Part shown: piece by piece, positions 21,001 to 30,000 of the stretch
Position numbering within the stretch: the stretch's first letter is position 1
Layout of the letters: every line of letters begins with the position of its first letter
NCBI GenBank assembly: GCA_965153285.1
Contig: OZ229111.1
Source: Podarcis tiliguerta
Lineage: Eukaryota
Direction: 5' to 3' (one strand)
Length of the DNA stretch: 64,000 bases
Position numbers: made by a program

Positions 21001-24000
21001 ACAATGGAGCCCTCGAAATCCTCTTCTGCTTCTCCTGCTCTTTCAAACCTCGCGGTCGGCCCGCTCAGCCAATCAGGACGCGCAAAACTCAGCGGCTAAT
21101 CACCGACCCGGGGGGCGTGGCCAGCGCGGAGCTCAACGCGAGGCTGTTTCTCATGCTGGCTCTTGTCGCATGTAGTTCAGCCTCAGTCTGGGAGGAGTGG
21201 AAGGAGGAGCGGGCGGTCTTCTCCGGTCTGGTTCTTCTCCCTCTAGTAAAACCCTTCTGGGCCACAAAATATTACCTCTGCCACCATTCCAGTGCCAATT
21301 TTTGCCACCACCCACCTCCAAATATCTCACAAAAAGTGGGGGGGGGGCTACCTTTGGCTGCAACCCCCTTACAACACAAACTCCAAGGAAAAGGAGAGGA
21401 TTACTTCACAGACAATCACAATGGAAGGTGATGGACCCTTCAGACATCGGGAATTGCTCAGGCGAGCTATATGAAACCTGCATCCTTGACTTCGAGTAAA
21501 AAAAGGGTCCTCTCCAGTCACATTTTGATTCCTAACTCAGCTTCCAAAAGACTGTTGCTTTTTTCTTGAAAAAAAAGGAAGCTCAGAATCTGGGGCCCAC
21601 TGCAGGCATGGGCCCTGCTGCAATTGCTCTAACTGCAGTGTGGATAACCTTGCCCAGATCCCTTACACCAGGAATGGGGAACATTTTTTTAGTAAAAAAA
21701 AACACCCACATTATCTCAAGGGAAAACTTCCAGGAGCCATTTGCCAGTGGTGGATAGGGCTAGAGATGACAGTGCGTGGGCAAAAGGTGTTACTCTTACC
21801 TTTATATGATAGGCCGCATTCCAGCCACACAAAAGAGACATTTCTACACTCTTACGATGCCATCCTGACAAGCTAGATTAAGGACATACCAAAGCACTTG
21901 GGGAGGGATGGAGAAGTGTGGATTAGGAGGGGATATGGCATCTGAAGGATCCTTAGGGCCACAGAGAAGCTTGGAGGGCCACATTTGGCCCTGGGTCTGA
22001 GGTTCCCACCCCTGCCATACATGGATTTTATCTGGTAGCAGCCCACCAGGTGCTGGGGCTCTGCAAAATAGTATATGCACCAAGCATTGCACACCCCACC
22101 CGCTGCTAGGGATGTTTCCTCTTAACCACATTTACCGTCAGTCACACACACACAGTTTCTCCCCAGCCCAACTTTAGCTTCTGCTGCATTATGCTCAAAC
22201 TCTGTGGGACAGAGAAGAGGCAGAGTCTAACAGTTTCCTGGTACTTTGCAAAGCCGCTGTCATTATATCTGGACTTGTCATAAAGGTGATCCTGTTTTTA
22301 CAGGTATAATTGAAGCGAAGCGTGCTGTGGTATTTGTTTTCCCCTTTTCTTTCCTCGTGGTCATTATCTACTCCTCTCCTTTTATATCAGGCATTCACAA
22401 ATAATTTATCATTATTGGTGGAGAACTCCCAATATCCTTTATGCCCTTCCCAAATTAGGCCAAGCCTAGTGATAACTACTTGGTAACTGGTAAAGGTGAG
22501 TACAATGGATGCAACTTCAGAGAGTAGTGTTCTGTTAGGGAGGCATGAACAGAATTAATCTGTGCCAGTGTTGAAACCAACAAAGCTACCTTGCTTGGGT
22601 ACTAACAGTGGCATCATGTAGGGTTTTGGGGGTTTTTTTGCCTCCAAAATAATGTTTGCAGATAACTGCATGCTCTTTCAGTTTTAGAATTTTCTAAAAA
22701 GGAAGCCAACACAGATTTTTAAAAAATCCTTCGAAATCTAGAACAGAACTGTTCTGGAACGGTAATACACAACATAACATTTATTTTCTGGAAATGTACG
22801 TTCTACAGCCCCTTGTTGGTGCCTGCTACCAAAAACGGGGCTTAGCTTTGGGGGACAACAAGTCTTGCCTGTGCTATGGCTTGTAGGTTCTTTAACTTTC
22901 TTCTTCATCCACTAAACTTCAACTGAGATTCCTGGGTGAGGACAAGACAGCACGGTTCCAGGAATAAACAACAGAAAAAAACATGGTATCTGTAGTCTAA
23001 AAACTGACTTCTCAAATACATATAAACCTGTTATGACTAATACTTTGGGACATATAATAGATAACAAAAGCTCTAAGGGAAGTGGAGGGGCATCAGACTG
23101 CTGAACTGTGGTTATCTCAACAACTTTTCCGTAGAGCCAGACTGAAGGTAGCAAGGTTGAAATCCAGCTTCTCGGCCCTGGACTAGCCTGATTCTTCTGG
23201 CTCCTCAACATCTATAAATTGAAAGAAAGACAGTAAATCTCTCAGTTCCCTAAGGATTTATCATGTTCCAGAATAGCCTGTATCTATGCCTACATAAACC
23301 TCATTATGAAGGGCCACAGAAAGTACCAGGTTCAATCCCTGGCATCTCCAGGCAGGGCTGGGAGACCCGTCTGACATCTTGGAGGGCCTAGCATAGACAA
23401 TGCTAAGCTAGACAGACCAATGGTCTGACTTGATATAAGGCAGTTTCCTATGTTCCTGCTTAGGGAGCCAAGTGAATTTTTAATCATCTATATGCCTTGC
23501 ATATAGAAGGGACGCGGGTGGCGCTGTGGGTTAAAACACAGAGCCTAGGACTTGCCGATCAGAAGGTCGGCGGTTCGAATCCCTGTGACAGGGTGAGCTC
23601 CTGTTGCTCAGTCCCAACTTCTGCCAACCTAGCAGTTCGAAAGCACATCAAAAGTGCCAGTAGATAAATAGGTACCATTCCAGTGGGAAGGTAAATGGTG
23701 TTTCCATGTGCTGCTCTGGTTTGCCAGAAGCAGCTTAGTCATGCTGGCCACATGCTGTATGCTGGCTCCCTTGGCCAATAAAACGAGATGAGCGCCGCAA
23801 CCCCAGAGTTGGTCACGACTGGAACTAATGGTCAGGGGTCTCCTTTACCTTTACCTTTACGCCTTGCAGGTTGGCAGAAAATTCTACTCATTATTGGGAA
23901 ATCTAAGGAAGAGGCTTTCACCTTGAGATGAATAGCACTCATGTTTGGGAGACACAAGCAGAGATGCCATACATCCTGTGAATGGTTGGATTTCTACTCA

Positions 24001-27000: not shown

Positions 27001-30000
27001 CAAAGTTTTTTTGAAAAGCAAATGCTGCTGGAGAGGGTCATCTTGGCTCAGCCGCATCCTATACAGATAAGAAACGGAACAGATTTATTCCCATCAGGAA
27101 AAAGAAATTGGTGGGATGAAATGTGTTATTGGACCAGTGATGCAGCTAAGGTTTGTTAGCCCCCGATGGAAAAAGAAATTTGTACAACTTACCAATGAAA
27201 GTTAGTAAATGAAGGGGTTAAGGAACACAGAACTGTAAATTTCTAGAGAAGGCACAGCTCAGATACACCCCCTCACCTTCAAGGAGGAGGGAAGTCTTGT
27301 TTGTTCCCTGCTCCTCTCTCCCTCTTCTTTTTGAACCATGCAGCTGACCAGACACATGAGGCTGGCGCTCCCTGTCCAAATTCCATGCTTGAAGGTACCC
27401 TTTTCGTATTTTGTACTCAATAAGTTTTTACCTGTATTGTTTTTTCTGTAGCATTGATTGATGCATGAGTGTGACCTTTACTTAATATAAGTAAAGCATT
27501 TAAACTTATGAAGGTTTGTGCTCTATTAACTCTGAGAGTGGTAGAGACAGGGGAACGCAATTAGTACCCAGTGCTTAATACTGGGACATTTAAAGGTCTA
27601 ACAACCTATATTTGCCACGCTTTGCAAACACTGCATATATTTTAGTTTTAAACTCTGCTGGGGGCCCTTTTGACTACAGAGTGAGTCAGCCCCATGTTTT
27701 TTAAATTCAGGGAGTCAGCCGTTTTTTGTTTTCTTTTGTAGTTTCCCCCCCACATGGAATATCTGGATTAACTAGTATTCCCCAGTTATTTCCTAACAAA
27801 GAGTTCCCCGCGCCTCCTCTAGAGGGAGCTTTAGGCTGCAACCCTATATACCGTATTTTTTGCTCTATAAGACTCACTTTTTCCCTCCTAAAAAGTAAGG
27901 GGAAATGTGTGTGCGTTTTATGGAGCGAATGCAGGCTGCGCAGCTATCACAGAAGCCAGAACAGCAAGAGGTATTGCTGCTTTCACTGCTCAGCGATCCC
28001 TCTTGCTGTTCTGGCTTCTGAGATTCAGAATATTTTTTTCCTTGTTTTCCTCCTCCAAAAACTAGGTGCGTCTTGTGGTCTGGTGCGTCTTATAGAGCGA
28101 AAAATACGGTATAAGCTTAGCTGGGAGCCAGGCCCCCATAACTCAGTGGGGTTTACTTCTGAGTAGGCCTGTGCAGGAGTGCATGGAGAGATGACTGGCT
28201 ACCCTTAAAGTACTAAGCCTGAAGAGTAGGCATGATGCCATTTCTGAGCTTTGTGCCACCATTACTCACAAAGGCAAAGAAGCTGTGCTTGTGGTAGGAG
28301 AGCTCATCAAGGGTGTTCCATAGGGACTGGAGTCATCGTTGCTGTAACTCAGGTGGAAGTCACAATCTTTCCAGTCTTCAGCTTGTTCTTCAGCGCGTTC
28401 CGCAGCCACTTCCTGGTGAACACAAAATAGGCATGAGCTGAATTGGCAAAGTAACAAATGGAATATCAAACTCAGGGTCAGATGCCCACGATGGAAGATA
28501 CAAGGATTCTAACTGGGTGGATCCATCTTTTCTCCACCCCACCTGAAAACGCAGCTAAGCCCTCCCAAGCAACTTGTTCTCACTTTCCCCCTTCCCACCA
28601 ACAATCATGGCTAGCTCACAGGTTTCATCTTTCCCTTGGTGCTTATCAACTTTCACCTCACTGTGCTTCTCCTTTCCAAAGAATATGACCTCTATCCCAA
28701 AATGGGGAGATGAGGCACAGAGACAGAGACCTAAAACTCGGCTTGTGAGAGTTTCACCACTTACCTCTACGTTTTGTGGCACCCCATCCTTCAGCGTTCT
28801 CCAACTGAAGGAAGTATCATTTGTAAGCTCTAATGAGTAGTCATCTTCATCTGTTTCTCCTGCACTTTCCACAAGGCTATGCAGCATCTTCTTTTCCAAA
28901 TCCCCATCAGGATTGTCATCTTGAATCTGAGAGTCTCCTGACTCCTCACACAGATGCTGTTGCTCTTCCATTCCTTCTGCTTCCCAGTTCATAACTGGCA
29001 ACTCTTCTGAGACTTGAAATGCCAACTTTCCCCTTCCCTGGGAAGTAGCTCTCTTTTTCAGAACCTGAAGCTGACTTCCTTTAGCCACTTCCTCCTCTTG
29101 GTGGGTCACAGATCCCTTTATGTCTCCTTCATGATCCAGCAATCCCCTTCCAGGCAGCTCCCCAGCACTGCAAAGTGCCTGTGGACCCTGGGCCAGGTAT
29201 GTGCTGCCAATGCAAAGGGGCTCCATCAAATGTGTTACCTGGAAGAGAGGGTGACAGGCTAAACAGCTTAAGATCATTACAGAATTAGTGACATCACAGA
29301 ACTATATACAGATCTGTCCATTCAACACATCTTTTGTCCTAACGGGCATAGGATAGAGACGCAGCCAAAACACAGAATAACACTCCATGGGCATGTGAAT
29401 AGAAGTGCATCTGGGCAAAGACACCCTTCCACTTTTGAATTAGAGGGCAGGCACCAACCCTTGTCAACACATTTATCCTGAACCTCTATCTCTACCCAAC
29501 TGCATACAGAAATGGCCAGTCTGCCACGTTGGCTGGGAGCACTATTTTTTCAGCAGTCCCCTCTAATTGACAAGGTCACCCACCACCACCTCCGCCTTTT
29601 CCTCAACTGCACCCATCAGCAGCCATACCTCTGACAGGAACCTCAAGATAGCATCCTGCTTGTACCTCCCAGCCTCTTCTTGGTCCCCTCTGCCGGCACC
29701 TTCCCATGCCAGAGGACCACTCGTTCCCAGCTGACTCTCCTCCTCTTGGCTGCTGCTCTCCTCGACCTCCTCCTCAGCAGTTTCTTCCCCCTTTCTCCAG
29801 CAGCCTAGTTCCAGGTCAAGATCTGAGCTAGAGCCTGTGGAGCCCTGGGGAGACTGGCAGCTGCTGCTCTTCTCTGACTCCGTGAAGAATTCTTCTTTGG
29901 ACTCCAGCCAGGTCCACACGTGACCCATCTACAAGAGGTACATGAGATGGGAAGAGGGTTTGTCACTCGCTCACGTGCTAGCTTCAGATCAGATCAGGTG

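What the first reader, a model, noticed from the sequence alone, without database searches (positions are those of the whole stretch)
22780..29928. Intact second-bromodomain cassette behind BRD8: long isoform or hidden stand-alone gene
Seen: seven in-frame exons lie beyond the short-isoform stop and polyA signals. The first begins AG|ATG, so the cassette can splice on in phase 0 after exon 34770-34726 (about 1359 aa, two bromodomains) or be translated alone (437 aa, acidic region plus bromodomain). Established: the human long BRD8 isoform has homologous sequence. Inference: it has been retained since the amniote ancestor, diverges much faster than the main gene, and could be a tissue-restricted acetyl-lysine reader lacking the N-terminal part of BRD8.
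Basis: partly seen in the sequence, partly recalled or inferred. Interest (0 to 1): 0.7.

Follow-up and report, generated by a model that had tools for sequence, protein, structure and literature searches.

The report
BRD8 long-isoform second-bromodomain exons
These seven exons are the known alternative 3' end of the wall-lizard BRD8 gene, which adds an acidic linker and a second bromodomain, so the finding is real but ordinary and already annotated.

Summary
On the minus strand, seven exons (29928-23204) with AG/GT borders carry one open frame of 437 codons. They lie beyond the short-isoform terminal exon (33424-33365) and its two AATAAA signals. The last four coding exons encode an intact bromodomain.

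The window is a Podarcis lizard. Public BRD8 isoform records X8/X9 of P. lilfordi and P. muralis (1287 aa) already contain this cassette, joined at ...LLSLF|MGHVW.... Two-bromodomain BRD8 isoforms are also listed for a turtle, a crocodile, birds, marsupials and placentals. Two papers report the human equivalent as testis-exclusive.

The "hidden stand-alone gene" reading is not new either. Automated annotations in 13 reptile species already model the cassette as a separate 285-450 aa protein. Nothing in this window supports an internal promoter:
- there is no CpG island upstream of the first cassette exon;
- the start context is weak and upstream ATGs are present;
- the first Met is replaced in 8 of 45 amniote rows.

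Transcripts cannot be checked with these tools.

The faster-divergence claim holds at protein level. BD1 is 99-100% identical from lizard to mammal, BD2 69-90%, and the linker 11-83% by exon.

Verdict: already known, low interest.

The parts
34726..34770 (-). Last exon shared by the short and long BRD8 isoforms (DSVPMGSPAFLLSLF). Its donor chooses between the two alternative 3' ends.
   Evidence: AG|...|GTAAGT, 45 nt, phase 0; the junction LLSLF|MGH is present in 9 of 13 long records examined.
33365..33424 (-). Proximal alternative last exon (short isoform): 19 codons plus TGA. AATAAA follows at 33249 and 33054.
   Evidence: That this peptide is the end of the known short isoform is recalled, not tested.
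29629..29928 (-). Cassette exon A, 100 codons, begins AG|ATG. Serine- and acid-rich.
   Evidence: 99% to a P. muralis BRD8 record and 97% to a P. lilfordi record.
28765..29238 (-). Cassette exon B, 158 codons. Acidic linker and the fastest-diverging part.
   Evidence: 158 of 158 identical to P. lilfordi BRD8 isoform X8; 20-57% identity to other amniotes.
28270..28412 (-). Cassette exon C, 143 nt. End of the linker.
   Evidence: The split codon TT|G gives Leu, as in record P0001.
26969..27058 (-). Cassette exon D, 90 nt. First helix (alphaZ) of bromodomain 2.
   Evidence: helix 314-333 in the model of the Zootoca record, which differs from this exon at one residue (by eye).
25788..25856 (-). 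Cassette exon E, 69 nt. ZA loop with the conserved PGY.
   Evidence: Pfam Bromodomain positions 15-34, 15.5 bits, below the cut-off on its own; same length and phases as the BD1 exon at about 36936-36868.
24078..24308 (-). Cassette exon F, 231 nt. Helices A, B and C of bromodomain 2, with the acetyl-lysine-anchoring Asn (MYN), plus a C-terminal tail.
   Evidence: Pfam PF00439 positions 36-83 of 84, E 3.2e-11, 43.5 bits; alignment to the CBP bromodomain; 78 of 78 identical to P0001.
22780..23211 (-). Terminal exon G. It completes the Arg codon, then Cys and TGA (23211-23204), followed by the 3' UTR and AATAAA at 22785-22780.

Best explanation
The region is the distal alternative 3' end of BRD8 in a Podarcis wall lizard.

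The donor after exon 34770-34726 has two choices. It can splice to the proximal terminal exon (33424-33365, stop, polyA signals at 33249 and 33054), which gives the short one-bromodomain protein. Or it can skip that exon and splice in phase 0 to exon A at 29928. Six further exons then add about 306 residues of acidic, poorly ordered linker and a second bromodomain (BD2), ending at TGA 23204 with the polyA signal at 22785.

BD2 arose by internal duplication of the bromodomain exon unit: BD1 and BD2 share intron positions and phases. By analogy with human BRD8, the long form is most likely a tissue-restricted (testis) variant of the NuA4/TIP60-EP400 subunit carrying a second acetyl-lysine reader.

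Shown here: the exon anatomy, the frame, an intact bromodomain, identity to annotated long isoforms, and the distribution across amniotes. Inferred: that the junction is used in this animal, the tissue restriction, and ligand binding.
For: - Anatomy and frame.
- tblastn of the P. lilfordi record (1287 aa) places BRD8 on the minus strand from 52221 to 24077, with the cassette as its last exons.
- Exon-by-exon searches hit BRD8 isoform records of P. lilfordi, P. muralis, Lacerta agilis, Hemicordylus, Sceloporus and Anolis at 54-100% identity.
- Exon F finds two-bromodomain BRD8 isoforms in birds, Pelodiscus, Crocodylus, marsupials and placentals: 302 proteins at E<=1e-10, of which 120 were listed.
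- The junction LLSLF|MGH.. is present in 9 of 13 long records examined; in the other 4 the anchor motif was not found.
- Bromodomain: Pfam, (70.6 bits, positions 3-83 of 84, on the Zootoca record, which is identical to the window in exons E and F).
- The model of that record has pLDDT 64-90 over residues 311-430. It matches solved bromodomains at target-normalised TM 0.81-0.87 and rmsd about 2 A.
- 51 columns are invariant across 45 amniote rows, 47 of them in BD2, including Y353, P360, Y395 and N396.
- BD1 and BD2 share a 69-nt exon with identical phases.
- The human long isoform with BD2 is reported as expressed abundantly and exclusively in testis, and its BD2 as binding H4K5/K8ac (PMC11462934, PMC10139981; passages seen).
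Against: - The Podarcis isoform records are predicted models, and I could not see their transcript support.
- Twelve squamate species and one turtle carry models that start at the cassette instead.
- 9 of the 11 cluster representatives that matched exon A at E<=0.001 (the weakest probably spurious) carry the match at or near the N-terminus of proteins of 103-440 aa. Only one carries it at 843-935 of a 1197-aa protein. So in many data sets the linking junction was not recovered.
- The ZA-loop Met of RPMDL, whose counterparts M195/M362 of yeast Bdf1 impaired core-histone binding when substituted (PMC11462934), is Ala in the window and other lacertids. Ligand binding may therefore differ.
Confidence: 0.85

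Rival explanations
1. The cassette is also, or instead, transcribed from a promoter inside the intron 29929-33365 and translated from the ATG at 29928. The product would be a stand-alone 437-aa protein (acidic region plus bromodomain) lacking the BRD8 N-terminal part. It would act as a free acetyl-lysine reader, or as a competitor of full-length BRD8.
For: - Public automated annotations model exactly this in 13 reptile species: Zootoca 436 aa, Rhineura 440, Heteronotia 441, Gekko kuhli 440, Sphaerodactylus 438, Candoia 440, Python 442, Pseudonaja 425, Pituophis 435, Pogona 'isoform X2' 413, Anolis sagrei 302, A. carolinensis 285, Carettochelys 450.
- Eleven of these 13 begin at the same MGHVWTW.
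- The Carettochelys model, where that Met is Arg, starts 10 codons further upstream. That needs a 5' end other than the BRD8 splice.
- An in-frame TAG directly precedes the ATG in the window, so a transcript starting in the intron would use this ATG as the first in-frame start.
- All squamate rows except Pituophis keep the Met.
- 9 of 11 representative hits carry the match at or near their N-terminus.
Against: - Zootoca (split model) and Podarcis and Lacerta (long models) are close relatives with 89-96% identical cassette exons A and B. The split therefore looks like a difference in annotation evidence, not in biology.
- There is no CpG-island-like window in 29929-33365, where observed/expected is 0.17. 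The only islands are at 52751-54000, 20501-21500 and one window at 9251-9750.
- The ATG context is CTTGTAGATGG, with T at -3. Upstream ATGs with short ORFs lie 15 and 198 nt before it, and the only TATA-like hexamer is 264 nt upstream.
- Exon A has a normal acceptor with 13 of 18 pyrimidines.
- The Met is V, A or R in 8 of 45 amniote rows (four parrots, Aegotheles, Rattus, Mus caroli, Carettochelys). The neighbouring G, H and W are conserved as well, so it reads as part of a motif.
- No paper on such a transcript was found.
Confidence: 0.18
2. The cassette is an unused relic in lizards: exons inherited from the amniote ancestor that are no longer expressed and are drifting.
For: The linker exons are very divergent, at 11-57% identity between Podarcis and other amniotes for exons B and C. 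A ZA-loop contact residue has changed in squamates.
Against: - 437 codons are open, with all splice sites canonical.
- The frame is kept in every one of the 45 aligned amniote records.
- 47 BD2 columns are invariant, including the acetyl-lysine Asn and the ZA-loop Tyr.
- BD2 is 80-90% identical among squamate families.
Confidence: 0.02

Closest known systems
Human BRD8 long isoform (NP_631938 / UniProt Q9H0E9-1, 1235 aa, transcript NM_139199), as described in PMC11462934 and PMC10139981
   Same: It has the same gene plan: a distinct C-terminal region replaces the short isoform's end and carries a second bromodomain (BD2). It also skips a 73-aa central segment, as the 1287-aa Podarcis record skips the exon near 46782-46546. 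Non-human mammalian records share the LLSLF|MGH.. junction.
   Different: I made no comparison with human sequence. Against dog, horse, mouse and aardvark records, BD2 is 73-74% identical, exon A 36-47% and exon B 20-30%. The ZA-loop Met is Ala in the lizard. Expression in lizards is unknown.
Predicted BRD8 isoforms X8 (Podarcis lilfordi) and X9 (P. muralis), 1287 aa
   Same: These are the same locus and the same exons. Exon B is 158 of 158 identical to the P. lilfordi record, exon A 97% (P. lilfordi) and 99% (P. muralis), and exon F 100% to both.
   Different: The window differs from each record at a few residues in a mosaic way: exon B is 93% to P. muralis, and exon A has 3 differences to P. 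lilfordi. It may therefore be another Podarcis species or another individual. I did not determine the species.
'Bromodomain-containing protein 8-like' gene models of reptiles (for example Zootoca vivipara 436 aa, Python bivittatus 442 aa)
   Same: They are the same seven-exon cassette, starting at the same Met and ending at the same ...GFVRR(C).
   Different: They are annotated as separate genes or short isoforms, without the BRD8 N-terminal 850 residues. Whether that reflects real 5' ends or missing junction reads cannot be told here.
Bromodomains of PCAF/GCN5, CECR2, BPTF and CBP/p300 (solved structures)
   Same: They share the four-helix fold: target-normalised TM 0.81-0.87, rmsd 1.9-2.5 A over about 100 residues for the ten best hits. 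The sequence match to CBP/p300 has E about 1e-6.
   Different: Sequence identity is only 22-35%. No BRD8 chain appeared among the 60 listed sequence hits (of 148 matched) or the listed fold hits.

Membership tests
Bromodomain (Pfam PF00439) | Profile match above the curated cut-off | tested here: met
   Exon F alone scores 43.5 bits against a cut-off of 21.7, covering positions 36-83 of 84. Exon E alone scores 15.5 bits, below the cut-off, covering positions 15-34. The Zootoca record, identical in exons E and F, scores 70.6 bits over positions 3-83 of 84.
Bromodomain (Pfam PF00439) | Acetyl-lysine-anchoring Asn at the end of helix B, and a conserved Tyr in the ZA loop | tested here: met
   Exon F reads ..NAIMYNNSN.., aligned to ..NAWLYNRKT.. 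of CBP. Exon E reads ..APGYKDVV... Both columns are invariant in all 45 amniote rows (Y353, N396). Which residues are the functional ones is taken from PMC11462934 and general knowledge.
Bromodomain (Pfam PF00439) | Left-handed four-helix bundle | tested here: met
   The model of the Zootoca record from alignment A2 has helices at 314-333, 363-371, 378-395 and 400-426, with pLDDT 64-90. The best PDB matches are all bromodomains, at target-normalised TM up to 0.87. The model is of a public homologue, not of the window's joined exons.
Bromodomain (Pfam PF00439) | Binds acetylated lysine | not testable with these tools
   Binding is reported for human BD2 (H4K5/K8ac) in PMC11462934. The lizard has Ala in place of the ZA-loop Met.
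BRD8 long (two-bromodomain) isoform | Cassette lies in the BRD8 gene, on the same strand, downstream of the short-isoform terminal exon | tested here: met
BRD8 long (two-bromodomain) isoform | In-frame junction from the last common exon to the first cassette exon | tested here: met
   Both exon borders are in phase 0. The same junction is present in 9 of 13 long records examined.
BRD8 long (two-bromodomain) isoform | The junction is used in transcripts of this species | not testable with these tools
   Only predicted records were available, with no transcript data.
Independent 'BRD8-like' gene | Own promoter or transcription start between 33365 and 29929 | tested here: inconclusive
   There is no CpG island, with observed/expected 0.17, and one TATA-like hexamer 264 nt upstream. 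Germline promoters can lack both features, so this does not exclude a start site.
Independent 'BRD8-like' gene | Start codon kept wherever the cassette is kept | tested here: not met
   The residue is Met in 36 of 45 rows. It is V in 6, A in 1, R in 1, and absent from 1 model. It is kept in every squamate row except Pituophis.

The most novel reading that the evidence does not exclude
In squamates, and perhaps turtles, the BD2 cassette is also expressed from an intronic start site as a free protein of about 437 aa, made of an acidic linker plus a bromodomain. Lacking the BRD8 N-terminal part, which presumably carries the NuA4/TIP60-EP400 contacts, it would read or mask acetylated H4 independently. 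Its ZA loop has been altered (RPMDL to RPADL/RPVDL). That would explain why annotation pipelines split it off in 13 reptile species.
Probability: 0.15. Interest if true: 0.4.

Novelty: already known. Interest (0 to 1): 0.15.

Why it matters
It matters little beyond correct annotation. The cassette is the lizard counterpart of the testis-restricted two-bromodomain BRD8 isoform.

Two modest points may interest specialists:
- Reptile annotations are inconsistent, giving a long isoform in some species and a separate 'BRD8-like' gene in close relatives. Transcript data should resolve this.
- The two bromodomains evolve at very different rates. BD1 is 105-106 of 106 identical from lizard to mammal, while BD2 is 69-90% identical and carries a squamate-specific change at a ligand-contact position. 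This bears on the question, left open in the 2024 review, of what BD2 does.

Tried and rejected
- First structure prediction, from the 11 short reptile records (A1): mean pLDDT 36.6, too poor to use. It was replaced by the 45-row alignment A2.
I did not fetch or use them, so their taxa are unknown.
- Pfam on exons A-D gave only sub-threshold chance matches.
- Pfam and the protein atlas did not identify the gene downstream of 22780.
- HSP-based per-exon identities ran into introns and were replaced by protein-level alignments.
- Codon-level dN/dS was not possible, because no vertebrate nucleotide collection is on hand.
- The window's exons were never joined. Every search with window sequence was exon by exon, so the joined 437-aa and full-length models were not searched, folded or looked up.
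- Supplementary figures S1A and S1B of PMC10139981 (GTEx exon usage) could not be seen.
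Full report
**What is there**

On the minus strand of 29928-22780 there are seven exons with canonical borders.
- A: 29928-29629 (300 nt)
- B: 29238-28765 (474 nt)
- C: 28412-28270 (143 nt)
- D: 27058-26969 (90 nt)
- E: 25856-25788 (69 nt)
- F: 24308-24078 (231 nt)
- G: from 23211, whose first eight bases finish an Arg codon and read Cys-TGA

Each exon is preceded by AG and a pyrimidine tract of 13-16 Y in 18. All but the last are followed by GT. The phases chain into 437 codons without a stop. 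AATAAA lies at 22785-22780. Exon A starts AG|ATG in phase 0, and an in-frame TAG sits immediately upstream in the intron. The window has no N.

Upstream, exon 34770-34726 (DSVPMGSPAFLLSLF) ends in phase 0. A proximal terminal exon at 33424-33365 ends in TGA and is followed by AATAAA at 33249 and 33054.

**How the searches were done**

Every search that used window sequence was made exon by exon. Statements about whole proteins rest on public records that those searches returned.

**Whose gene it is**

- Exon B is 158 of 158 identical to 'bromodomain-containing protein 8 isoform X8 [Podarcis lilfordi]' (1287 aa) and 93% to P. muralis isoform X9.
- Exon A is 99% to the P. muralis record and 97% to the P. 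lilfordi record.
- Exon F is 100% to both.

The window is therefore a Podarcis wall lizard. The mosaic of small differences means I cannot say which species or individual.

tblastn of the P. lilfordi record places BRD8 on the minus strand from 52221 to 24077, with the cassette as its last exons. That record reads ...PAFLLSLF|MGHVWTW..., which is the junction 34726^29928. The 1287-aa record skips an alternative exon near 46782-46546 that the Hemicordylus record matches.

**What it encodes**

- Exons A-C give about 306 residues rich in Ser, Glu and Asp. They have no Pfam family and low model confidence, apart from one weakly supported helix across the A/B border.
- Exons D-F encode a bromodomain. 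Exon F alone matches Pfam PF00439 positions 36-83 of 84 at 43.5 bits, against a cut-off of 21.7.
- The Zootoca record is identical to the window in exons E and F and differs at one residue in exon D (by eye). It matches positions 3-83 at 70.6 bits.
- The ZA-loop Tyr (PGY) and the acetyl-lysine Asn (MYN) are present and invariant in all 45 amniote rows.
- A model of the Zootoca record built from the 45-row alignment has pLDDT 64-90 over residues 311-430 and the expected helices.
- Its best matches among solved structures are all bromodomains (PCAF, CECR2, BPTF, GCN5, CBP), at target-normalised TM 0.81-0.87 for the ten best.
- BD1 and BD2 share a 69-nt exon with the same phases, and the following intron sits at the same codon. 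This shows that BD2 arose by internal duplication of the bromodomain exon unit.

**Distribution**

Exon F retrieved two-bromodomain BRD8 isoforms from squamates, a turtle (Pelodiscus), Crocodylus, many birds, marsupials and placentals: 302 proteins at E<=1e-10, of which 120 were listed. The junction LLSLF|MGH.. is present in 9 of the 13 long records I examined; in the other 4 the anchor motif was not found. Retention since the amniote ancestor is therefore supported. Amphibians and fishes were not examined.

**Rate of change**

| Segment (Podarcis record against other amniotes) | Identity |
|---|---|
| BD1 | 105-106 of 106 in every comparison, out to mammals |
| N-terminal 699 residues | 73-92% |
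| BD2 | 69-90% |
| Exon A | 36-74% |
| Exon B | 20-57% |
| Exon C | 11-83% |

One search gives the same picture within squamates. The claim of faster divergence holds at protein level. Codon-level tests could not be run.

**Known biology**

Two papers, of which I saw passages (PMC11462934, PMC10139981), describe the human counterpart.
- The 1235-aa isoform differs from the 951-aa isoform in its C-terminal region, lacks 73 central residues, and alone has BD2.
- BD2 is reported to bind H4K5/K8ac.
- The review names the role of BD2 as an open question.

A third review notes ligands about 30-fold selective for BRD8(2) (PMC13316735). The figures behind the GTEx statement are in supplements that I could not open.

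**The stand-alone reading**

It is not new. Searches returned short models that consist of the cassette alone in 12 squamate species and one turtle, 285-450 aa long, mostly named 'bromodomain-containing protein 8-like'. Eleven of the 13 start at the same MGHVWTW. The Carettochelys model, in which that Met is Arg, starts ten codons further upstream.

In the exhaustive representative search with exon A, 11 proteins reached E<=0.001. Nine carry the match at or near the N-terminus of proteins of 103-440 aa. One carries it at 843-935 of a 1197-aa protein, later named as Sarcophilus. The weakest (E 9.7e-4, 30% identity, four short stretches) is probably spurious.

Evidence against independence:
- Zootoca (split model) and Podarcis and Lacerta (long models) are close relatives with nearly identical cassettes. 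The split looks like a matter of which junction reads were available.
- The intron 29929-33365 has no CpG-island-like window, with observed/expected 0.17 against 0.25 for the whole window.
- The ATG has T at -3, and upstream ATGs lie 15 and 198 nt before it.
- Exon A has a normal acceptor.
- The Met is V, A or R in 8 of 45 rows that keep the cassette (parrots, Aegotheles, rat, mouse, Carettochelys), and the position is absent from the Pituophis model. The adjacent G, H and W are conserved too.

None of this excludes a CpG-poor germline promoter.

I found no paper on a BRD8 internal promoter or a stand-alone BD2 transcript. For the hits I saw only the listings, none of which has BRD8 in its title or abstract.

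**Verdict**

The finding is a correct reading of an already annotated feature: the distal alternative last-exon block of BRD8, which gives the two-bromodomain isoform. I put 0.85 on that as the main or only use of these exons. I put about 0.15-0.2 on an additional independent transcript, and about 0.02 on an unused relic. Novelty: already known. Interest: low.

Noticed in passing
window 52751-54000 (NHP2 exon 1 about 53170-53340, + strand; BRD8 exon 1 at 52221-52105, - strand): A CpG island lies between BRD8 and a head-to-head neighbour. The neighbour's first exon matches H/ACA ribonucleoprotein subunit 2 (NHP2; PDB 7bgb_I, E 1.9e-11). This explains a fused L7Ae-plus-bromodomain model in Pelodiscus.
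   Followed up: partly
window 20501-21500, with ORF pieces at 12248-12607, 10935-11318 and 7279-7653 (- strand): A second CpG island lies 1.3-2.3 kb downstream of the cassette's polyA signal. It is probably the promoter of the next gene, which looks coiled-coil-like. Pfam and the protein atlas gave no identification.
   Followed up: partly
window 23394-23457, 26326-26389, 30360-30423: Three copies of a SINE-like repeat in the same orientation (69-83% identity over 64 nt) sit in the cassette's introns and just upstream of exon A.
   Followed up: no
window 27847-28113: A MITE-like element in the intron between exons C and D has 31-nt terminal inverted repeats (94% complementary) and an inner 34-nt hairpin at 27946-28024.
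   Followed up: no
window 24308-24296 (start of exon F: the last base of the split Arg codon, then PADL): The ZA-loop Met of RPMDL is Met in 34 of 45 amniote rows. It is Ala in the window and in the three lacertid rows of the alignment (Podarcis x2, Zootoca), and V, T or I in most other squamates. Substituting the corresponding Bdf1 residues (M195/M362) impaired core-histone binding according to PMC11462934.
   Followed up: partly
window 36936-36868 and 36601-36424 (BD1 exons) against 25856-25788 and 24308-24078 (BD2 exons): BD1 and BD2 share intron positions and phases. BD1 is 105-106 of 106 identical from lizard to mammals, while BD2 is 69-90% identical. This is a very unequal constraint on the two copies.
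   Followed up: yes
record P0019 (Pogona vitticeps 'isoform X2', 413 aa): This short model lacks the 23 residues of exon E plus the split Arg codon at its 5' border, an in-frame 69-nt skip. It would therefore lack the ZA loop of BD2.
   Followed up: no
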